Positions 18,554 through 43,069 of a stretch of DNA of 43,069 nucleotides are shown here, piece after piece. The position numbers were made by a program, and so were the translations under genes. The stretch spans positions 1-43,069 of the forward strand of contig JAGVNX010000040.1 in NCBI GenBank assembly GCA_020053055.1. Direction: 5' to 3'. Every line of letters begins with the position of its first letter. Position 1 is the first letter of the stretch. The notes beneath the pieces are model-generated. The model saw only the letters and a list, made by a program, of their open reading frames with translations, made no database searches and was not told the DNA's origin. This stretch comes from Candidatus Iainarchaeum sp. (GTDB taxonomy: Archaea > Iainarchaeota > Iainarchaeia > Iainarchaeales > GCA-2688035).

Positions 18554-18615
18554 CAAACTGCAAAAACGCGGTTTCCTGCAGGGGTTCCGGAGCGGTCAAA
18601 CGGACGGGACTTAAG

Positions 18616-18747
18616 AGGCCTTTTCTTGAACCTTGTAAAACCAAAAGGTTTTACGAAGCCTCGCAAAGCTTTGCTTTGCAAGGAAGAAAAACCCTGGGAA
18701 AAAAGAGTTCCCAAAATGCAATTATTGTGGACAAAAGGCCGGGAGCA
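18616..18747 (+). other. tRNA-Leu intron (near-canonical BHB)
   Basis: Inner helix GGCCUUUU 18617-18624 / AAAAGGCC 18733-18740. Central helix CUUA/GGAG has 3 pairs plus an A-G mismatch. Bulges are AG|A and CA|A. One extra unpaired G lies at 18741. Confidence 0.8.
18617..18705 (+). repeat. Repeat-family copy inside the tRNA-Leu intron
   Basis: About 85% identical by eye to 27123-27210. The 33-nt block gcctcgcaaagctttgctttgcaaggaagaaaa (18658-18690) is identical to 27163-27195. Confidence 0.8.
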
Positions 18748-18885
18748 ATCCCGTGGCTTAGTGCCTTCGGGGGTTCGAATCCTCCCCTCTGCACTGCCCT
18801 TTCTTTTCTTTGGAAAAGAAAAGTGCAAGCATCCTGAACTGGATGACAAACAAAAAAAATGGTTTGAAAATTTGAAGTGATTTGA

Positions 18886-34678: not shown

Positions 34679-35293
34679 ATGGCTAAAATTGAAAAACTCT
34701 GCAAAAATGAAAAAAACGCCTTGAAAAAAGCAGCCAAAACCCTTGAAACAGGCGGGGTAATTATTTTTCCAACAGAAACAAGCTACGGAATAGGCGCAGA
34801 TGCATTAAGCGAAAAAGCAATTAAAAAAGTGCACAAAGCAAAAAAACAGCCTGACAACAAGCCAATAAGCGTAATAGTTGCCAACTTGAAACAGGCAGAA
34901 AGCATTGCCGAGCTAAACCAAGAAGCAAAAATTCTTGCAAAAAAATTCTTTCCAGGCCCGCTTACAATAATTGCGCCTGAAAAAAATGTTCCAAAAAACC
35001 TTGCAAAAAACGGAATCGCATTCAGGGTCCCGGACAATAAATTCGCAAGAAAATTATGCAAAGCATTCGGAAGGCCGATTACAGCAACAAGCGCAAACCT
35101 GCACGGAGAACCCGCAATTTTTGATTCAAAAGAACTGATTGAAAAATTTTACGGCAGAGTAGATTTGATAATTGACGCAGGAAAACTTCCAAAAAGAGAA
35201 GCAAGCACGATTTATTCCGCAATCGAACACAAAATTTTAAGAGAAGGAAAAATAACGAAAAAAGAAATTGAAAAAGCATTGAAAAAGAAGTGA
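34679..35293 (+). CDS. tsaC: L-threonylcarbamoyladenylate synthase (Sua5/YrdC/TsaC, YrdC-domain only)
   Basis: GGVIIFPTETSYGIGADA, KPISVIV, FPGPLTII, FRVPD and ITATSANLHGEP motifs. Confidence 0.9.
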   Translation: MAKIEKLCKNEKNALKKAAKTLETGGVIIFPTETSYGIGADALSEKAIKKVHKAKKQPDNKPISVIVANLKQAESIAELNQEAKILAKKFFPGPLTIIAPEKNVPKNLAKNGIAFRVPDNKFARKLCKAFGRPITATSANLHGEPAIFDSKELIEKFYGRVDLIIDAGKLPKREASTIYSAIEHKILREGKITKKEIEKALKKK

Positions 35294-35297
35294 AAAA

Positions 35298-35771
35298 ATG
35301 GCAAAGCAAATTGGAATCAAAATCACATACAATAAAGAGGCTGGAACGCCTCTTTTCGCAGACTTTCGGATCGAAAAAGGAATTCCATCCAAAGAATTCT
35401 TAACAAACCAAACAATTCGAAAAACGATTCAGGAATCACCTTATATTGTTGGTTGCCATTTGGGAACGATGACTCTCAAAAAAAACCCTAAAGGCAACAA
35501 AGCTTGTTGGGTTTGCTATAACCCATTTCCACGCACCGACCTATGGCTTGGAAAAAAAGGCATTGCACAGTTATTGGAATACCGCGTGCTTCAAAAATTC
35601 AGAGAACAACATCCAACTGTCTCACAGGTTAAACACATAGACCCCTCACAGCTTCGAATAGGCCAGTTACAAAGACGCGGTTTAAATCCTAACCATTACT
35701 CTTTCAAGGATGCTATCAAAAAACTTCGAAAAAAAATTGCCAAAGATGCCCGAAAAACACGAAGGCCATAA
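35298..35771 (+). CDS. Hypothetical protein (weak GNAT-like motif only)
   Basis: 157-aa ORF between sua5 and kae1. LWLGKKGIAQLLEYRVL...LQRRGLNP loosely resembles GNAT motif A/B. By eye, the codon style lacks the poly-A runs of neighbouring genes. Confidence 0.45.
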   Translation: MAKQIGIKITYNKEAGTPLFADFRIEKGIPSKEFLTNQTIRKTIQESPYIVGCHLGTMTLKKNPKGNKACWVCYNPFPRTDLWLGKKGIAQLLEYRVLQKFREQHPTVSQVKHIDPSQLRIGQLQRRGLNPNHYSFKDAIKKLRKKIAKDARKTRRP

Positions 35772-35946
35772 AAATTATTGAATCAAATGATTTGAATAAA
35801 ACAAAAAAATTATTGAATTTGTTACGCAAAAAATAATGAAGGAATTGCAATGATTTGTTTAAGCTGTGAAGCAACGGAGAAATAAAATTTGATTAGGGGA
35901 AATTTGGATTCGAAAAGATTAAGCCTTTGAAAAGCAGATTTTTGTA

Positions 35947-37200
35947 ATGCAAGAGGATTTTTCTTTTTTGGATTATTTTTACGAAATGCATTTCGATGAA
36001 AAAGAAAAGAAAAAATTTTCGGATTTTTTCAGAGCAATTGAATTAAGAAAACAAAAAAACTTTGCAAGCGCAATTGCAGACGTTACTAATTTGCCAAAAC
36101 ACACAATTGAAAAATGGCTTTTTGGCAAAAACATTCCTTTTGTCATTAGGCTTTTTCAACATTATAAAAAAATAGGCAAACCCAAAAAGGGTTGCCAATG
36201 GCTTTCCATAAACTCTACAAGAGGCGGGTTATTTACTGGGCCTTGGGTTCAAGTTCCACTAAAAATAAACGCTTTTGAAGAAGTGGAATATGCACTGAAT
36301 CAATTGAAAGAAATAGAAAACTTTCAAGTATTAAAGAAAAAATTTGGCATTAAAACAGCTGAACAAAAAGAACTTCTTTTTGCATATCTTTTAGGAATGC
36401 TTATTGGCGATTCTAGTAAGCCAGCAATCAAAAGAAAAAACAGGACAACGAGGTGCATAACAATCCGTTTGACAACTGCACACGAAAGCAATGAACTTCT
36501 TGGCGAGTTTACAAGTTTGTGTGCCAATGTCTTGGGTTTGAGAATGAAAAAATGCAAAAATTGCCCTGCAGGAAAATGTAATACAAACCCATTCTATACT
36601 TGGATTTCACAATCTTCCCCCTTAATTCAATGGGTATTCAAAGCCTGTTTAGGGCTTGAGGATAATGGAAGAACAACTTATGACAAAATTAAAGCAGACT
36701 GGTTATTGACTGTGCCTAGAGAGTTTAGAATATGCTTTCTGCAAGGCCTTGCAGATTCTGATGGATTTGTGGATTTAAGTGCACAACACGCCGCAGTAAT
36801 AACACACCCAAATACAAATTTAATAGAAAAAATATTTGATTCTTTAGGAGTAAGAACAAGAAGGTGGTTGATAACCCAAACTGGCTTGTGGTGTCTTGTA
36901 GTAAGCATAAAAGATGCTTTTGAATTGCCATTATTTAGCCCAGAGGTCAAAAGTTATCGCTATCAGAAAGTAATTAAATTGTTTAATGCCAAAAGGATAA
37001 TAGGCCACTTTCCTGCTTGGCTGGGAAAAAAAGTTGATGACAACATAAAAGCAGGGATAACTGGAACAAAATTAATGGAAAAAATTCTTGATGAAGACGG
37101 AGTAGCAATTAGAACAAAATCAATAAACAGAAGGAAGAAAAAAATGGAAAGCAAAAAAGAAGGCATTGTATGCCTTGGCATTGAAAGTACCGCACTCTAA
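35947..37200 (+). CDS. LAGLIDADG-family (double-motif) homing-endonuclease-like protein
   Basis: Two motifs, LLGMLIGDSS and FLQGLADSDGFV, about 110 aa apart. The N-terminal ~130 aa look HTH-like. The last 19 codons are kae1 exon 1, and the stop is the first TAA of the kae1 mini-intron. Confidence 0.8.
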   Translation: MQEDFSFLDYFYEMHFDEKEKKKFSDFFRAIELRKQKNFASAIADVTNLPKHTIEKWLFGKNIPFVIRLFQHYKKIGKPKKGCQWLSINSTRGGLFTGPWVQVPLKINAFEEVEYALNQLKEIENFQVLKKKFGIKTAEQKELLFAYLLGMLIGDSSKPAIKRKNRTTRCITIRLTTAHESNELLGEFTSLCANVLGLRMKKCKNCPAGKCNTNPFYTWISQSSPLIQWVFKACLGLEDNGRTTYDKIKADWLLTVPREFRICFLQGLADSDGFVDLSAQHAAVITHPNTNLIEKIFDSLGVRTRRWLITQTGLWCLVVSIKDAFELPLFSPEVKSYRYQKVIKLFNAKRIIGHFPAWLGKKVDDNIKAGITGTKLMEKILDEDGVAIRTKSINRRKKKMESKKEGIVCLGIESTAL

Positions 37201-38169
37201 ATTTAAGGCGGAGATACTTTTGGTGTCGGTATAGTCAGCGACAGCCAGAACCAGTGCAACATTCTTGCAAATGAAAAAAAAAGCTATGTAAGCGAAACAG
37301 GGGGAATTCATCCTAGAGAAGCAGCTGATTTGCATTATTCAAATGCACGGCTTGTTATTGAAGAAGCACTGCAAAAAGCCAATTTGAAAATCAAAGACAT
37401 TGATTTAATCAGTTTTTCAATTGGCCCGGGCCTGGGGCCTTGCTTGCAGGTCGGGGCAGTGGCTGCAAGAGCCCTGGCGCTTGGAAACAAAAAACCTTTG
37501 ATTGGAGTGAACCATTGCGTTGCGCATGTTGAAATTGCAAAAAAAATTACTAATGCAAAAGAAGCAATTTTTGTTTATGCTTCCGGGGCAAACACGCAGA
37601 TAATCGGCTATGAAAGCGGAAAATACAGGGTTTATGGAGAAACCCTTGACATTGGAATCGGAAACCTCCTGGATTCTTTTGGAAGAAGCCTTGGAATTGG
37701 TTTTCCCGCAGGGCCAAAAATTGACGAAATGTACTTTCAGGCAAAAAATTACATTGAACTGCCCTACAGTGTTAAAGGAATGGACCTTGTTTTTGCAGGC
37801 CTGGAAACAGCTGCAGAAAGAAAAATCGGCAAAGCTGACAAAACAGACTTGGCTTACAGTTTAATGCACACTGCCTTTGCGGAATTAACAGAAGTTTCGG
37901 AAAGGGCTCTTGCGCATACTGAAAGAAAAGAGCTTGTTCTGACAGGAGGGGTTGCTGCAAGCAAAGCCCTGCGCAAAATGATGGATGAAATGTGCAATGC
38001 ACGCGGAGCAAAATTATTGGTGCCGCCTTTCGGAGTCTGCACAGATAACGGCGCAATGATTTCATGGCTTGGAATAGTGGAACACAAAGCAGGAATAAAA
38101 CAAGAAATTTTGGAAACAAGAATCCTGCCAAGGCAAAGAACAGACAATGTTGAAATCACTTGGGTATAA
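37144..38169 (+). CDS. kae1: tRNA N6-adenosine threonylcarbamoyltransferase Kae1 (KEOPS catalytic subunit), interrupted by an 18-nt segment; exons 37144-37195 and 37214-38169
   Basis: GIESTA..TFGVGIV, GGIHPREAA, GPGLGPCLQVGA, GVNHCVAHVE, SGANTQ, GETLDIGIGN, GGVAAS and DNGAMI all lie in one frame. In-frame TAA codons occur at 37198 and 37204. The spliced length is 1008 nt (335 aa). Confidence 0.88.
37196..37213 (+). other. Candidate 18-nt bulge-helix-bulge mini-intron in kae1
   Basis: Canonical hBHBh' motif: AAAGUA 37184-89 / UACUUU 37215-20; CCGC 37190-93 / GCGG 37208-11; bulges ACU 37194-96 and AGA 37212-14; inner hairpin 37197-37207. Excision restores ...STA-H-TFGVGIV. Confidence 0.7.
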
Positions 38170-38232: not shown

Positions 38233-39366
38233 ATGATGCGTTCATACAGGTTCAGACTTTACCCAAGTAAGGTTCAGGATAAGGCTATGTGCAGCCATCT
38301 TGGCATAAGCAAGAATCTCTGGAATGAGATGCTTGAACATACGCAGAGGATGTATACTGATTATGGAAAGTTCCCAACAAAAAAAGCTCTGAGACAGTTT
38401 GTGAAGGATACTGGTTTGTATTCGCAAGTCGGTCAGGAGCTTGTTGACAGACTGCTTGATGCACTTAAACACAAAATGCAGATGAAGAAAAAAGGTTTGA
38501 AAGGAGGCTTTCCCAGGTTCAAGAGTTTTGACAGGATGAAATCGTTGAACTATCCGCAGAGCGGCTTCAGACTAGGCAAGAAACTAAAGGTTACGTTGTT
38601 CGGTGATATAGCAATCAGGCAGCACAGGGAAATAAAAGGCAAAATAAAGACAATGAGCCTGAAACACGAGCCAAGCGGAAAATGGTTTGCTATTTTTACC
38701 ACAAAGCAGGAAATGCAACATAATGTAAACAACGGGGATAAAGTAGGTCTTGACCTTGGGTTGTTGTCCTTTGCAACTCTTTCTGATGGAACAGTTATAG
38801 ACAACCCGCGGCACTTGAAGAAGTATGAAAACAAGCTTGCAACCCTGCAAAGGACTCTGTCAAAGTCCAGGAAAGGCTCAATAAACAGGAGAAAGACAAA
38901 GCATAGACTTGCTGTCCTGCATGAAAAGATTGCAAACGCAAGAAAAGATTTCCTGCACAAGCTATCAAACAGGTTAACATCAACGTATTCCCTTATTGCA
39001 ATGGAAGAGCTTGCATCAAAAGAAATGGCAGAAAGACAGTTTGGCAAAAGCATCCATGACGCAGGATGGTCAATGTTTACAAGCATGCTACGCTACAAGG
39101 CTGAAAGCGCCGGTTGCAAAGTCATGCTTGTAAACCCAAAGAACACAACAAAACAATGCAGCAAATGCGGAACATTATCAGATAAAACCCTGAGAGACAG
39201 AATGCATAATTGCCCTTCATGCAATCTCTCAATGGACCGCGACCTAAATGCTGCAAAAGTTATACTTGAAAAAGCTAGGGCAGGAACTGCCCAAAGTAAC
39301 GCCTGTGAAGACAAAGCAACAGCTTTGTCCATGAACCAGGACGCCTGCCGCTTCAGCGGCAGGTAG
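38233..39366 (+). CDS. tnpB: TnpB (OrfB_IS605) RNA-guided nuclease family protein
   Basis: 377 aa. The N-terminus YRFRLYPS is typical. RuvC-I is VGLDLGL, RuvC-II is IAMEEL, the zinc ribbon is CSKCG...CPSCN, and RuvC-III is MDRDLNAAKV. All catalytic residues are present. Confidence 0.9.
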   Translation: MMRSYRFRLYPSKVQDKAMCSHLGISKNLWNEMLEHTQRMYTDYGKFPTKKALRQFVKDTGLYSQVGQELVDRLLDALKHKMQMKKKGLKGGFPRFKSFDRMKSLNYPQSGFRLGKKLKVTLFGDIAIRQHREIKGKIKTMSLKHEPSGKWFAIFTTKQEMQHNVNNGDKVGLDLGLLSFATLSDGTVIDNPRHLKKYENKLATLQRTLSKSRKGSINRRKTKHRLAVLHEKIANARKDFLHKLSNRLTSTYSLIAMEELASKEMAERQFGKSIHDAGWSMFTSMLRYKAESAGCKVMLVNPKNTTKQCSKCGTLSDKTLRDRMHNCPSCNLSMDRDLNAAKVILEKARAGTAQSNACEDKATALSMNQDACRFSGR

Positions 39367-42022: not shown

Positions 42023-42628
42023 TCACCTTGAACTGAAAATCCATTCAAAAAAGCTTTTCAGCAAGAAATCCAAAAAACCAAGCAATTGCACAAGCAAGAA
42101 AGAATTAATGCTCAAAACGAACAAAAACACTGCCCAAACAAATCTCAAGGCAGAAGACTTGTCAAACAAAAGGAAAAATCCGCTTAAAAAAACCAGTGGA
42201 AAAAAAATAAACGGCGATAAAACAAGCCATAAAAACCTTGAAAAAATGCTTCCGCGCACAATCCTTTTTTTCAAGGAACCAGTAACAATATCAAAAGTGT
42301 TCATTGCATCAATCCTGCTTGGAAAAGAAAAAAGAATAATTGAAAAGCCAAGCCAATAAAACAAAACAGAAAGCAGAAACATTCTTGAAATCAGTTCAAA
42401 AGCAAAAACCAATAATTCAAGGCCAAGAATTGTTCCAACAACAAACGGCGCAATGCTGATAACAGGAGATTGCCAGGCCCTTGGAATATCATGCCTGACA
42501 AACGCTTCTTCAGAATCAAAAAGCCTGACTTCCTTAACCTTAACCCCGACAAGAACACAGGCCAAATAATGGGACAATTCGTGAAAAACAATGCCAGGAA
42601 AAAAAATATGCTGAAATTTCAAAGCCAT
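42023..42628 (-). CDS. Membrane protein with an HExxH zinc-metalloprotease motif
   Basis: GIVFHELSHYLA lies near the N-terminus, followed by several TM segments. Confidence 0.6.
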   Translation of the reverse strand: MALKFQHIFFPGIVFHELSHYLACVLVGVKVKEVRLFDSEEAFVRHDIPRAWQSPVISIAPFVVGTILGLELLVFAFELISRMFLLSVLFYWLGFSIILFSFPSRIDAMNTFDIVTGSLKKRIVRGSIFSRFLWLVLSPFIFFPLVFLSGFFLLFDKSSALRFVWAVFLFVLSINSFLLVQLLGFLDFLLKSFFEWIFSSR

Positions 42629-42696
42629 AAAAAAACCTTTTCTTAAAAAGAAAAGCCTTGAGGAAGCATTAAAAACTGGGCTCTAAAAAAACAGGA

Positions 42697-43069
42697 TTAT
42701 TCCTCGATTTTGATTCCGAATTCTTCGTCAATTTCTCTTGCTGTTTTTTTCATTTTTTCAAAAACCCTTTCAATGTCTTCCTGGATTTCCTCAATTGTGC
42801 GGAACATGCTTCTGCTTCTCGGCAGGTAAAACCTGCCCTGCCTTGTAATAAGGCCGCTTCTTTGAAGGTTATTCAAATGGTTAATAACAGAGCCACGGCT
42901 CATTTTAACGATTTTTGAAATCTGGGTGCTGGAAACAGGCTTGTTTTCAGTTGCCATGACAACAACCCTGAAAACATTGGAAGCAGTTTTTTCCCTGTCA
43001 ATAGGCTCGAAAAATCCGAGGCAACTGCAAATCCATTCAAGCTCCTTGTCAAGGTCCCTTGAAAAAGGC
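42697..43069 (-). CDS. Winged-helix transcriptional regulator (GbsR/MarR-like), N-terminus outside the window
   Basis: The frame stays open upstream of the track ATG (42957) to the window edge: ...LGFFEPIDREKTASNVFRVVVMATENKPVSSTQISKIVKMSRGSVINHLNNLQRSGLITRQG. Confidence 0.6.
   Translation of the reverse strand, partial: PFSRDLDKELEWICSCLGFFEPIDREKTASNVFRVVVMATENKPVSSTQISKIVKMSRGSVINHLNNLQRSGLITRQGRFYLPRSRSMFRTIEEIQEDIERVFEKMKKTAREIDEEFGIKIEE

What the first reader, a model, noticed from the sequence alone, without database searches (positions are those of the whole stretch)
37184..37220. 18-nt bulge-helix-bulge mini-intron carrying two stop codons inside the essential kae1 gene
kae1 is the only housekeeping gene in the window with a broken frame. 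From ATG 37144 it reads MESKKEGIVCLGIESTA-L-stop-I-stop-GGD-TFGVGIVSD..., with TAA at 37198-37200 and 37204-37206. It then stays open in the same frame to 38169 and carries every Kae1 motif.

Two independent observations point to the same 18 nt.

(1) Protein logic. Archaeal Kae1 proteins, as I recall them (for example GIEGTAHTLGIGIV and GLEGTAEKTGVGIV), have 3 residues between TA and GxGIV. Here there are 9. Deleting exactly 37196-37213 (TCTAAATTTAAGGCGGAG) joins C37195 to A37214-T37215. That makes a CAT codon and gives GIESTAHTFGVGIV.

(2) RNA structure. The same 18 nt are delimited by a textbook hBHBh' motif:
- outer helix AAAGUA 37184-37189 / UACUUU 37215-37220, six Watson-Crick pairs, extendable with GU pairs toward 37175/37229
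- central 4-bp helix CCGC 37190-37193 / GCGG 37208-37211
- two 3-nt bulges on opposite strands, ACU 37194-37196 and AGA 37212-37214
- a small inner hairpin, 37197-37207

Cutting after the second bulge nucleotide on each strand removes precisely 37196-37213. The same rule reproduces the canonical 37/38 site in this window's tRNA-Leu intron. The spliced CDS is 52+956 = 1008 nt.

To my knowledge, BHB introns in archaeal protein-coding genes are known essentially only from cbf5 in Crenarchaeota. A stop-containing micro-intron in kae1 would therefore be new, and it would make t6A synthesis dependent on the tRNA splicing endonuclease.
Basis: partly seen in the sequence, partly recalled or inferred. 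Interest (0 to 1): 0.9.

Follow-up and report, generated by a model that had tools for sequence, protein, structure and literature searches.

The report
Spliced mini-intron inside archaeal kae1
An essential tRNA-modification gene (kae1) of a tiny DPANN archaeon is interrupted by an 18-base tRNA-type intron that must be cut out of the mRNA, and this intron travels between archaeal lineages together with a neighbouring homing-endonuclease gene.

Summary
The kae1 frame (37144-38169) is broken by two TAA codons. Removing exactly 37196-37213 restores GIESTAHTFGVGIV, the motif read in 46 intronless relatives.

The 18 nt lie in a bulge-helix-bulge (BHB) fold: a 14-15 bp outer helix, the 4-bp helix CCGC/GCGG, and two 3-nt bulges.

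The main new evidence is comparative. Eleven other distinct kae1 alleles from DPANN metagenomes carry an insert at the same codon. Inserts are 13, 15, 18, 20 or 21 nt, so most shift the frame. All keep the BHB, with compensatory changes in all three helices. Spliced ORFs are full length, with dN/dS of 0.06-0.13. This excludes an artefact, a pseudogene and translational bypass.

It is a LAGLIDADG homing endonuclease whose predicted fold is closest to I-DmoI. All five close family members looked up, and the window, sit directly upstream of an intron-bearing kae1. Decayed resident kae1 5' ends lie upstream of it, and the first ~39 codons of the window's kae1 look imported.

My reading is a mobile cassette: endonuclease gene, replacement exon 1 and a mini-intron that keeps the endonuclease target split. 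Splicing itself is inferred, not shown.

The parts
37144..37195 (+). kae1 exon 1. It encodes MESKKEGIVCLGIESTA plus the first base of the His codon.
   Evidence: It joins in frame to 37214 to give GIESTAHTFGVGIV. Its last 20 nt form the 5' strands of the outer and central BHB helices.
37196..37213 (+). 18-nt BHB mini-intron TCTAAATTTAAGGCGGAG, holding two in-frame TAA codons.
   Evidence: Homologous inserts of 13-21 nt sit at the same codon in 11 other distinct alleles. Covariance model R1 scores all 12 alleles at 67-77 bits, against 30 bits or less for intronless alleles.
37214..38169 (+). kae1 exon 2, including the stop codon at 38167-38169.
   Evidence: Open frame. TsaD Pfam domain at 1e-75. 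HCVAH and DNGAM motifs are present. dN/dS is 0.06-0.07 against L001 and L002.
37176..37189 (+). Outer helix h, 5' strand. It pairs with 37215-37228.
   Evidence: MFE structure. Across 12 alleles, 89% of cells pair, with an AU-to-UA and a CG-to-UA double change.
37215..37228 (+). Outer helix h, 3' strand, lying in exon 2.
37190..37193 (+). Central 4-bp helix H, exon strand CCGC. It pairs with GCGG at 37208-37211.
   Evidence: 100% paired in 12 alleles. Pair 2 occurs as C-G, U-A and A-U.
37208..37211 (+). Central helix H, intron strand GCGG.
37194..37196 (+). 5' bulge ACU. The predicted cut is after C37195.
   Evidence: The bulge is 3 nt in all 12 alleles (ACU, ACG, ACA, ACC or UCU). The cut position is inferred from the restored CAT codon.
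37212..37214 (+). 3' bulge AGA. The predicted cut is after G37213.
   Evidence: The bulge is 3 nt in all alleles (AGA, AAA or AUA). Only this cut gives His in every allele.
35947..37143 (+). Free-standing LAGLIDADG homing-endonuclease gene. Its ORF continues in frame through exon 1 to the intron TAA at 37198-37200.
   Evidence: Weak Pfam LAGLIDADG_3 match. AF2 model with pLDDT 90.4. Top Foldseek hits are I-DmoI, E = 4e-8, target TM about 0.70. Invariant G154-D155 and S271-D272. The family has 92 members, and 24 end in ..GIESTAx*. All five close members looked up lie directly upstream of an intron-bearing kae1.
35851..35886 (+). Probable decayed remnant of the resident kae1 5' end: ATGATTTGTTTA..., reading MICLSCEATEK*.
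   Evidence: The first 12 nt equal the kae1 start of L004 and L008. It is weak on its own (alignment z about 3). Clearer remnants sit at the same relative place in L087 (MKVLGIESTGY*) and L085 (MKNPIILGIKECKT).
37144..37279 (+). Donor-like (co-converted) segment of kae1, about codons 1-39 with the intron inside it.
   Evidence: Nucleotide identity over codons 20-40 is 0.77-0.82 to the endonuclease-bearing clade (L089, L077, L078) and 0.67-0.69 to L001 and L002. It reverses to 0.45-0.52 against 0.77-0.80 over codons 40-60. The SDSQxx indel is shared with the endonuclease clade. Informative sites run 8 donor to 4 recipient, then 16 to 84, Fisher p = 4e-4 at the best breakpoint.
35298..35771 (+). 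ORF157 of unknown function. It is part of the roughly 1.85 kb present here but absent between sua5 and kae1 in close relatives.
   Evidence: Homology to L002 and L038 stops at about 35300 and resumes at 37255. No Pfam hit. No homologue in any fetched locus.
34679..35293 (+). sua5/tsaC, the ancestral upstream neighbour of kae1 in the rce1-sua5-kae1 gene order.
   Evidence: Pfam Sua5_yciO_yrdC at 2e-52. The gene order is the same in L001, L002, L038, L077 and L078.

Best explanation
Positions 37196-37213 are a genuine archaeal bulge-helix-bulge (BHB) intron inside the coding sequence of kae1.

Proposed splicing mechanism:
1. In the pre-mRNA, the end of exon 1 pairs with the start of exon 2 to form a 14-15 bp outer helix.
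2. The last four paired exon bases, CCGC, pair with the intron's GCGG.
3. This leaves two 3-nt bulges, ACU and AGA.
4. The tRNA-splicing endonuclease EndA cuts after the second nucleotide of each bulge.
5. The RtcB ligase joins C37195 to A37214. This re-creates the split His codon CAT and the open 335-codon kae1 frame.
6. Unspliced mRNA terminates at the intron's TAA.

Shown: the sequence, the fold, its conservation and covariation in 12 alleles, and purifying selection on the spliced ORF.
Inferred: the enzymes involved and the splicing event itself.

The intron belongs to a composite mobile element inserted at this site of kae1. The element consists of:
- a free-standing LAGLIDADG homing-endonuclease gene (35947-37143);
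- a replacement copy of kae1 exon 1;
- the mini-intron.

I infer that the endonuclease cuts intronless kae1 at or next to the codons for STA|HTF. Repair would then copy the cassette in and leave the resident 5' end upstream, where it decays. The replacement exon abutting exon 2 would otherwise rebuild the cleavage site. The mini-intron keeps that site split, so the carrier is immune. This parallels the 'collaborative homing' of phage free-standing endonucleases with group I introns.

Endonuclease-less intron alleles (L016, L078, L079) would be cassettes that lost the endonuclease gene, or intron-only conversions.
For: Intron and BHB:
- The deletion predicted from the RNA structure is the only 18-nt deletion that restores the conserved His.
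- The MFE fold has z = -3.9.
- Twelve distinct alleles carry inserts of 13, 15, 18, 20 or 21 nt at the identical C|AT position.
- 91.6% of pair cells are standard pairs, against 36-44% when partners are slid.
- Six pairs show double changes, and 0 of 500 shuffles reach this.
- Helix H is 100% paired, with CG, UA and AU at pair 2.
- In the outer helix, AGT-to-TGT in exon 1 is matched by ACT-to-ACA in exon 2 in L090.
- All spliced ORFs not cut by a contig end are full length, 324-339 aa. dN/dS is 0.06-0.13 even between intron-bearing pairs with saturated dS.
- Identical introns occur in assemblies from different samples: L081/L082, L083/L084, L085/L086 and L087/L088.
- The window's tRNA-Leu(UAA) carries a 132-nt intron at 37/38, which implies the organism has EndA.

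Endonuclease link:
- The fold matches I-DmoI and the catalytic Asp residues are invariant.
- 24 of 92 family proteins read through kae1 exon 1 into an intron stop codon.
- Every one of the 8 distinct endonuclease-gene loci has the intron, as does L077, which keeps only the tail of the gene. None of the 46 intronless loci among those searched carries the gene.
- The cassette is an insertion into a conserved sua5-kae1 junction.
- kae1 is mosaic, with a breakpoint near codon 39.
- L016 and L087 share an identical 13-nt intron although their Kae1 proteins have pN = 0.26.
- Remnants of the resident 5' end upstream of the endonuclease gene stop within a few nucleotides of the intron site.
Against: - There is no RNA evidence. 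None of the nine spliced proteins exists in the 15-billion-protein collection.
- EndA and RtcB were not found among the window ORFs scanned, so the EndA type of this organism is unknown.
- The inner helix h' is only 2 bp in the window and essentially absent in the 13-nt alleles. Those alleles are bulge-helix-loop substrates, which not every EndA type cleaves (PMC5829648).
- The intron sits only 52 nt from the start codon, so splicing must outrun coupled translation.
- The endonuclease target site is inferred, not measured.
- The remnants in the window and L090 are weak. DNA alignments were not significant except for L085.
- The mosaic test is based on 12 informative sites on the donor side and was optimised over breakpoints.
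- Locus sampling was partly biased, because endonuclease loci were fetched through the endonuclease protein.
- A distant family member, P0200 from a thaumarchaeon, is not next to kae1.
Confidence: 0.85

Rival explanations
1. The intron is real and spliced, but its link to the LAGLIDADG gene is incidental or different in kind. The endonuclease might target the sua5-kae1 junction or the kae1 start, with the intron merely riding in the co-conversion tract. Alternatively the protein might be a regulator or maturase rather than a nuclease, and the intron would not act as target-site immunity.
For: Introns occur without the endonuclease gene in L016, L078 and L079. Foldseek also hits WhiA and the bI3 maturase at about 1e-5. 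The protein has extra HTH-like N- and C-terminal domains. The remnant evidence is weak in two of the four loci.
Against: No case of the endonuclease gene without the intron was seen in 8 distinct loci plus the L077 remnant. The catalytic Asp of both LAGLIDADG motifs is invariant in 30 sequences. The L087 and L085 remnants keep resident-type codons up to the Thr-Ala codons and then lose homology. A replacement exon 1 abutting exon 2 would rebuild any target spanning that junction.
Confidence: 0.25
2. kae1 is a pseudogene here. An 18-nt insertion inactivated it and the BHB-like fold is coincidental.
For: There are two in-frame stop codons. Gene callers produce only a truncated 279-aa protein, P0003. 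Loose BHB-like motifs occur at chance frequency in the window.
Against: Twelve diverged alleles keep an insert at the same nucleotide with a covarying BHB. All those not cut by a contig end have intact full-length spliced ORFs, and dN/dS is 0.06-0.13. All catalytic motifs are present. No further frameshifts were found.
Confidence: 0.03
3. The interruption is overcome at translation rather than by RNA splicing, through ribosomal bypassing (as in T4 gene 60) or stop-codon readthrough.
For: A stop codon follows the interruption point closely and a hairpin lies there. In the window the insert is a multiple of 3.
Against: The conserved His codon is physically split as C|AT, so no hop or readthrough can make it. 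There are no matching take-off and landing codons. Inserts of 13 and 20 nt shift the frame. TAA is used as the ordinary stop of kae1 itself.
Confidence: 0.02
4. The 18 nt are an assembly or sequencing artefact of this contig.
For: The exact window allele was found on a single contig only. The closest relatives, at 82-87% identity, lack the insert.
Against: Homologous inserts occur in 11 other distinct alleles from independent projects (NCBI MAGs, JGI, ENA and Logan). Four of these were seen in two separate assemblies each.
Confidence: 0.01

Closest known systems
cbf5 pre-mRNA intron of Crenarchaeota (Watanabe 2002; Yokobori 2009, PMC2738675)
   Same: It is a small BHB intron inside a protein-coding gene for an RNA-modification enzyme. 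It is presumed to be removed by the tRNA-splicing endonuclease. It has a patchy distribution with gains and losses. Its size range is similar: 16-44 bp for cbf5 and 13-21 nt here.
   Different: The host gene differs (kae1, t6A synthesis) and so does the superphylum (DPANN: Iainarchaeota, and MAGs labelled Woesearchaeota or Nanoarchaeota). The kae1 intron lies 52 nt from the start codon. Every allele has an in-frame stop inside the intron. It is physically linked to a homing-endonuclease gene and shows signs of lateral transfer, neither of which appears in what I read of the cbf5 papers. The cbf5 introns were verified by RT-PCR, whereas this one is not.
Archaeal rRNA BHB introns that encode LAGLIDADG homing endonucleases (for example I-DmoI in Desulfurococcus mobilis 23S rRNA)
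   Same: Both combine a BHB intron with a LAGLIDADG endonuclease. The predicted fold of the window protein is closest to I-DmoI. Both insert into a highly conserved sequence of an essential gene.
   Different: Here the endonuclease gene lies outside the intron, upstream of a duplicated exon 1. The intron itself is only 13-21 nt and has no ORF. The host is an mRNA, not an rRNA.
Collaborative homing in phages: a free-standing endonuclease plus an endonuclease-less group I intron (F-CphI/psbA, mobE/nrdB; PMC2790892, PMC6083498)
   Same: In both, a free-standing endonuclease gene sits next to an intron-containing essential gene. In both models the intron interrupts the presumed recognition site, and the intron and endonuclease gene move together with flanking exon sequence.
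   Different: The intron is a protein-dependent BHB intron, not a self-splicing ribozyme. The hosts are archaeal chromosomes, not phages. The cassette also carries a replacement 5' exon and leaves a decaying resident exon behind. Cleavage specificity is untested.
HVO_1309 5'-UTR BHB intron of Haloferax volcanii (PMC7714728)
   Same: It is an mRNA substrate of EndA outside tRNA and rRNA.
   Different: That intron lies in the untranslated leader and does not interrupt a reading frame.

Membership tests
Archaeal BHB (hBHBh') intron, substrate of the splicing endonuclease EndA | Two 3-nt bulges on opposite strands, separated by a 4-bp helix | tested here: met
   CCGC/GCGG with bulges ACU and AGA. 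The geometry is identical in 12 alleles, and H is 100% paired with three pair types at pair 2.
Archaeal BHB (hBHBh') intron, substrate of the splicing endonuclease EndA | Flanking outer helix h | tested here: met
   14-15 bp in the window. 89% of cells pair across alleles, with two compensatory pairs. The AGC-codon alleles (L077, L078, L079, L089) have one C.A mismatch at pair 2.
Archaeal BHB (hBHBh') intron, substrate of the splicing endonuclease EndA | Inner helix h' closing the intron | tested here: inconclusive
   2 bp in the window, and the MFE prefers a shifted register. It is 3-5 bp with covariation in the 18-21-nt alleles. It cannot form in the 13-nt alleles, which are of the bulge-helix-loop type.
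Archaeal BHB (hBHBh') intron, substrate of the splicing endonuclease EndA | Cutting after the second bulge nucleotide on each strand gives a functional junction | tested here: met
   It restores CAT (His) and the frame in all 12 alleles. The alternative cut would give Asp, Asn or Tyr. The same rule gives the 37/38 junction in the window's tRNA-Leu.
Archaeal BHB (hBHBh') intron, substrate of the splicing endonuclease EndA | Actual cleavage by EndA and ligation by RtcB; spliced RNA present in cells | not testable with these tools
   No transcript data are available. The spliced proteins are absent from the protein collection.
Archaeal BHB (hBHBh') intron, substrate of the splicing endonuclease EndA | The organism encodes EndA | tested here: inconclusive
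   None of the 23 window ORFs scanned against Pfam is EndA or RtcB. The rest of the genome is not available. The intron-containing tRNA-Leu(UAA) implies the enzyme.
cbf5-type archaeal pre-mRNA intron | A small BHB intron interrupting a protein-coding frame | tested here: met
   18 nt inside kae1. The cbf5 range is 16-44 bp.
cbf5-type archaeal pre-mRNA intron | Located in cbf5 of Desulfurococcales or Sulfolobales | tested here: not met
   The host gene is kae1. The relatives are Iainarchaeota, or MAGs labelled Woesearchaeota or Nanoarchaeota.
LAGLIDADG homing endonuclease (upstream ORF 35947-37143) | Two LAGLIDADG motifs, each ending in a catalytic acidic residue | tested here: met
   The motifs are LLGMLIGDS and LQGLADSDG. 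G154-D155 and S271-D272 are invariant in 30 sequences. The Pfam LAGLIDADG_3 match is just above the cut-off.
LAGLIDADG homing endonuclease (upstream ORF 35947-37143) | Alpha-beta-beta-alpha-beta-beta-alpha double-domain fold | tested here: met
   AF2 model with pLDDT 90.4. The 31 best Foldseek hits are I-DmoI, E = 4e-8 and target TM 0.64-0.73. The sequence profile against PDB found nothing.
LAGLIDADG homing endonuclease (upstream ORF 35947-37143) | Site-specific double-strand cleavage of the element-free allele | not testable with these tools
   Only indirect evidence exists: resident-exon remnants end near the intron site, and the kae1 5' region is mosaic.
Collaborative homing (free-standing endonuclease plus ORF-less intron) | The endonuclease gene lies next to the intron-containing gene and the two co-occur | tested here: met
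   The end of the endonuclease gene is 52 nt from the intron. All 8 distinct endonuclease loci have the intron, as does the L077 remnant. None of the 46 intronless loci among those searched has the gene.
Collaborative homing (free-standing endonuclease plus ORF-less intron) | The intron interrupts the endonuclease's recognition site | not testable with these tools
   The recognition site is unknown.
Programmed translational bypass (T4 gene 60 type) | Matching take-off and landing codons flanking the gap | tested here: not met
   No matching codons are present, and the His codon is split across the gap.
Pseudogene | Relaxed selection, additional lesions or lost catalytic motifs | tested here: not met
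   dN/dS is 0.06-0.13, spliced ORFs are full length and the motifs are intact.

The most novel reading that the evidence does not exclude
This would be a previously undescribed type of archaeal mobile element. A free-standing LAGLIDADG homing endonuclease invades the essential gene kae1. It carries a replacement 5' exon plus a 13-21-nt BHB mini-intron whose job is to keep the endonuclease's own target split.

If correct, it would be:
- the first coding-region BHB intron outside Crenarchaeota;
- the first evidence that archaeal pre-mRNA introns spread horizontally by homing;
- an archaeal, protein-spliced counterpart of phage 'collaborative homing'.

It would also make t6A synthesis dependent on the tRNA-splicing machinery in many DPANN lineages.
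Probability: 0.55. Interest if true: 0.92.

Novelty: new variant of a known kind. Interest (0 to 1): 0.85.

Why it matters
Spliced protein-coding genes are almost unknown in Archaea. In the literature I could search, cbf5 in Crenarchaeota was the only coding-region case as of 2020.

A second, independent case has several consequences:
- It sits in a universal essential gene, in a different superphylum, and in many lineages. EndA/RtcB mRNA splicing is therefore not a one-off.
- Gene callers systematically mis-annotate such genes. Every intron-bearing kae1 found here is annotated as a truncated or frame-scrambled protein. None of the nine correct products is present in a 15-billion-protein collection.
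- It couples two layers of tRNA biology, because t6A37 synthesis would depend on the tRNA-splicing enzymes.

The link to a homing endonuclease gives a concrete, testable route by which BHB introns can enter and spread in protein genes. That bears on the long-standing question of how introns colonise coding sequences. It also offers a natural LAGLIDADG enzyme with a predictable 20-bp target.

Tried and rejected
- Default ARAGORN, and Rfam at both gathering and E-value thresholds, found no tRNA in the window. Only aragorn -i found the intron-containing tRNA-Leu, and it miscalled it Val.
- A generic BHB scan is uninformative by itself, because the number of hits is at chance level.
- Scans of genome and metagenome contigs found no closer copy of the window's own 18-nt allele. 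The nearest relatives, at 82-87% identity, are intronless.
- The kae1 of L026 (Nanoarchaeota MC-1) has a roughly 70-aa insertion. It is an open in-frame insertion, not an intron.
- L080/P0089 is a truncated or chimeric gene, and I ignored it.
- Only the last ~31 residues of the window endonuclease match L077.
- The second LAGLIDADG ORF of L077 is unrelated in sequence to the window's.
- L016 and L078 have no endonuclease gene next to kae1. I first read this as evidence against the homing idea. It is now explained as loss of the gene.
- A sequence profile of the endonuclease family against PDB gave no LAGLIDADG hit. Structure prediction was needed.
- DNA-level alignment of the 'remnants' to the true exon 1 was not significant except for L085. 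The case for remnants rests on peptide matches in L087 and L085.
- I considered a 'large ancestral intron containing the endonuclease gene that is still spliced'. I rejected it for the present loci, because the remnants are decayed and cannot form helix H.
- An exact look-up of nine spliced Kae1 proteins, looking for transcript-derived or correctly annotated copies, found none.
- A distant family member from a thaumarchaeon (P0200) is not beside kae1.
- My early count of about 35 read-through proteins was wrong. The regex count is 24 of 92.

Full report
**1. Observation**

The window is a 39% GC archaeal chromosome segment. It carries the ribosomal-protein cluster, SecY, aIF2-gamma, aIF5B and similar genes. 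By Kae1 similarity it belongs to the DPANN phylum Iainarchaeota (Diapherotrites), at 87% identity to 'Candidatus ainarchaeum' MAGs.

- From ATG 37144 the kae1 frame reads MESKKEGIVCLGIESTAL*I*GGDTFGVGIV.
- TAA codons lie at 37198-37200 and 37204-37206.
- The same frame then stays open to 38169.
- Removing 37196-37213 gives a 1008-nt CDS.
- Its 335-aa product aligns without gaps to solved Kae1 structures (2ivn, E = 5e-108) and has a complete TsaD domain with the metal-binding motifs.
- No other 18-nt deletion gives the His that follows TA in every homologue.

**2. RNA structure in the window**

- RNAfold of 37175-37229 gives a 14-bp helix between the end of exon 1 and the start of exon 2 as the MFE structure.
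- It also gives the 3-nt bulge AGA and the 4-bp helix CCGC/GCGG (-19.1 kcal/mol, z = -3.9).
- The 5' bulge ACU and a 2-bp inner stem are one of two equivalent registers, so h' is weak.
- My own motif scan shows that loosely defined BHB-like motifs occur at chance frequency. There are 27 and 19 on the two strands, against 19.6 +/- 4.4 per strand in random sequences.
- The 15-bp outer helix is unmatched. The random maximum was 10.

The fold alone would therefore be suggestive but not decisive. What is decisive is that the fold's predicted cut sites coincide with the single frame- and residue-restoring deletion.

The window also contains a tRNA-Leu(UAA) with a 132-nt intron at 37/38 (18616-18747). 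The standard tools missed it. It shows that the organism relies on the splicing endonuclease, and the same 'cut after the second bulge nucleotide' rule works there.

**3. Comparative evidence**

All 46 intronless kae1 loci recovered from genomes and metagenomes encode ..E[S/G]TAH[T/S]x[G/S].. without an insert. This includes the closest relatives, L001, L002 and L038.

Other loci do carry an insert at exactly the same nucleotide (the bar marks the splice sites):
- L016, a MAG labelled Woesearchaeota with only 50% Kae1 identity, has ...GAAAGTACTGCAC|TCTAAAGGCAGAG|ATACTTTC.... The insert is 13 nt and shifts the frame.
- Odd N-termini among the protein hits (LPWNRKHRTLE..GGDTFG, which is exon 1 read in the wrong frame) led to L077, L078 and L079, each with a 20-nt insert.
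- Following the upstream ORF family led to L081/82 (18 nt), L083/84 (15 nt), L085/86 (18 nt), L087/88 (13 nt), L089 (21 nt), L090 (13 nt) and L091 (18 nt).

That makes twelve distinct alleles. Four of them were seen in two independent assemblies each.

On their alignment (A1):
- 91.6% of pair cells are standard pairs, against 36-44% when partners are slid by 1-3 columns.
- The central helix is 100% paired and occurs as CCGC/GCGG, CUGC/GCAG and CAGC/GCUG.
- All three h' pairs show double changes.
- In the outer helix of L090, the exon 1 codon change AGT to TGT (Ser to Cys) is matched by ACT to ACA in exon 2.
- None of 500 shuffles reaches the observed covariation.

Further points:
- The bulges are always 3 nt.
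- Only the canonical cut produces CAT in every allele, because the second nucleotide of the 3' bulge varies (G, A or U).
- All spliced ORFs not cut by a contig end are full length, 324-339 aa.
- dN/dS is 0.06-0.13 at saturated synonymous divergence, including between pairs that both carry the intron.
- A covariance model separates the twelve alleles (67-77 bits) from intronless alleles (30 bits or less) and finds no other copy in the window.

An assembly artefact, a pseudogene and translational bypass are thereby excluded for practical purposes.

**4. The upstream ORF**

ORF 35947-37143 runs in frame into exon 1 and ends at the intron's first TAA.
- It has two LAGLIDADG motifs and a marginal Pfam match.
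- An AlphaFold model built from 30 family members has pLDDT 90.4. Its best structural matches are the many I-DmoI entries, E = 4e-8 and target TM about 0.7. I-DmoI is the homing endonuclease encoded inside the BHB intron of an archaeal 23S rRNA.
- The catalytic Asp of both motifs is invariant.

The family has 92 members in the 5.8-billion-cluster protein database:
- The source names that exist label them Nanoarchaeota, Woesearchaeota or Aenigmatarchaeota, with Thaumarchaeota among the distant members.
- 24 of them end in ...[CI]LGIESTA followed by 1-3 residues. They read through kae1 exon 1 into an intron stop codon, with at least ten different tails.
- Seven members were looked up, including P0129, which has its own stop and overlaps the kae1 ATG in another frame. 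Six of them lie immediately upstream of an intron-bearing kae1.
- The only exception is a distant thaumarchaeal member.
- No endonuclease gene was found next to any intronless kae1 among the loci searched.

**5. Evidence for a mobile cassette**

(a) The gene order rce1-sua5-kae1 is conserved, and in L002, L038 and L078 sua5 abuts kae1. In the window about 1.85 kb (35298-37143: ORF157 plus the endonuclease gene) is inserted there.

(b) The window's kae1 is mosaic.
- Codons 1-39 are closer to the endonuclease-bearing clade L089/L077/L078 and share its SDSQxx indel.
- The rest of the gene is much closer to the intronless L001 and L002.
- Nucleotide identity is 0.82 against 0.69 over codons 20-40, and 0.45 against 0.80 over codons 40-60.
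- Informative sites give p = 4e-4 at the best breakpoint.
- This looks like a co-conversion tract.

(c) L016 and L087 share an identical 13-nt intron and nearly identical flanks, although their Kae1 proteins differ at 26% of non-synonymous sites.

(d) Upstream of the endonuclease gene there are decayed copies of a kae1 5' end.
- L087 has ATGAAAGTCTTAGGCATTGAATCAACAGG... (MKVLGIESTGY*). It uses the TCA Ser codon typical of intronless alleles.
- L085 has MKNPIILGIKECKT.
- L090 has ATCCTCGGCGTCG.
- The window has 35851-35886, MICLSCEATEK*.
- Homology ends within a few nucleotides of the intron insertion point.
- The L087 and L085 cases are convincing. The other two are weak.

**6. Proposed mechanism**

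Shown:
- the intron geometry, its conservation and covariation;
- selection on the spliced ORF;
- the identity and distribution of the endonuclease gene;
- the insertion, the mosaicism and the remnants.

Inferred:
- EndA cuts both bulges and RtcB ligates the exons.
- The endonuclease cuts intronless kae1 at about STA|HTF.
- Repair, homologous on the exon 2 side and end-joined or upstream-homologous on the other side, installs the endonuclease gene, a replacement exon 1 and the mini-intron.
- The mini-intron prevents the replacement exon and exon 2 from re-forming the target.
- Recombination between the remnant and the replacement exon, or intron-only conversion, yields intron alleles without the endonuclease gene (L016, L078, L079).

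Every allele has an in-frame stop within three codons of the 5' splice site, using TAA, TAG or TGA at different offsets. This suggests selection for early termination on unspliced RNA. In 24 family members that stop also terminates the endonuclease ORF.

**7. Comparison with known systems and novelty**

Mechanistically this is a BHB intron like those of tRNA, rRNA and the crenarchaeal cbf5 mRNA, whose introns are 16-44 bp. A 2020 study states that cbf5 was the only coding-region example, and it adds one 5'-UTR case. Searches combining Kae1, LAGLIDADG, DPANN and BHB found nothing further.

What is new:
- the host gene and the lineage;
- the very small size, down to 13 nt;
- the architecture, with the endonuclease gene outside the intron, a replacement exon, and a protein-spliced mini-intron in the role that group I introns play in phage collaborative homing.

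I file it as a new variant of a known kind.

**8. Caveats**

- There are no RNA data, and the EndA type is unknown.
- The 13-nt forms need an enzyme that accepts bulge-helix-loop substrates. Such enzymes appear common in DPANN (PMC5829648).
- The endonuclease target is untested.
- Sampling of endonuclease loci was guided by the endonuclease protein.
- All sequences are from metagenome assemblies.

Noticed in passing
window 18578-18794 (+): tRNA-Leu(UAA) with a 132-nt intron at the canonical 37/38 position (intron 18616-18747). Its BHB is slightly relaxed, with an A.G mismatch in the 4-bp helix and one extra nucleotide on the 3' side. Default ARAGORN and Rfam missed it, and aragorn -i miscalled it tRNA-Val(UAC).
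   Followed up: partly
L077 4093-5241 (+), downstream of kae1: A second, unrelated LAGLIDADG_3 ORF ends in ...SAVDQRQRTDAIEVNWV*. That is the C-terminus of the related L078 Kae1. The L077 kae1 itself ends in ...TAVDQRQRTDQVNVTWV*. This looks like a mirror-image cassette at the 3' end of kae1, with a replacement 3' end plus an endonuclease gene fused to the displaced resident end.
   Followed up: partly
window 38233-39366 (+); L077 2243-2629 (-): An IS200/IS605-family TnpB (OrfB_IS605 plus Cas12f-like TNB domains) lies directly downstream of kae1 in the window. In L077 a Y1 transposase sits where most of the upstream endonuclease gene should be, leaving only that gene's last ~31 codons.
   Followed up: partly
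window 35298-35771 (+): ORF157 starts at the ATG that serves as the kae1 start in close relatives (the sua5 stop overlaps it). It has no Pfam hit and no homologue in any fetched locus. It is part of the inserted segment, and its function is unknown.
   Followed up: partly
L026 3222-3442 (Nanoarchaeota MC-1 kae1): A roughly 70-aa in-frame, open insertion sits within Kae1 after residue ~85. This allele is intronless, yet its exon sequence GAATGTA...TACGTTT can form an 8-bp outer helix, so it may have lost the intron precisely.
   Followed up: no
L016 2986-2998 and L087 3785-3797: An identical 13-nt intron with near-identical flanks occurs in two hosts whose Kae1 proteins are strongly diverged (pN 0.26, synonymous sites saturated). 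L087 has the endonuclease gene and L016 does not.
   Followed up: partly
window 35966-36005 (+): A BHB-like motif (outer helix 8 bp, inner 5 bp, 34-nt 'intron') lies at the very start of the endonuclease ORF. The sequence is A/T-rich and low in complexity, and removing the 34 nt would shift the frame. It is probably chance.
   Followed up: no
window 42621-42758 (-): A weak Rfam match to the ribosomal protein L10 leader (29 bits against a gathering score of 44, E = 0.55). It is a bacterial family and the match is most likely chance.
   Followed up: no
P0003, P0032, P0076, P0099 and the kae1 gene calls in L081-L090: Public gene calls for all intron-bearing kae1 genes are wrong. They are either N-terminally truncated (279-316 aa) or start in the wrong frame (LPWNRKHRTLE...). 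This signature could be used to mine further BHB-interrupted genes.
   Followed up: partly
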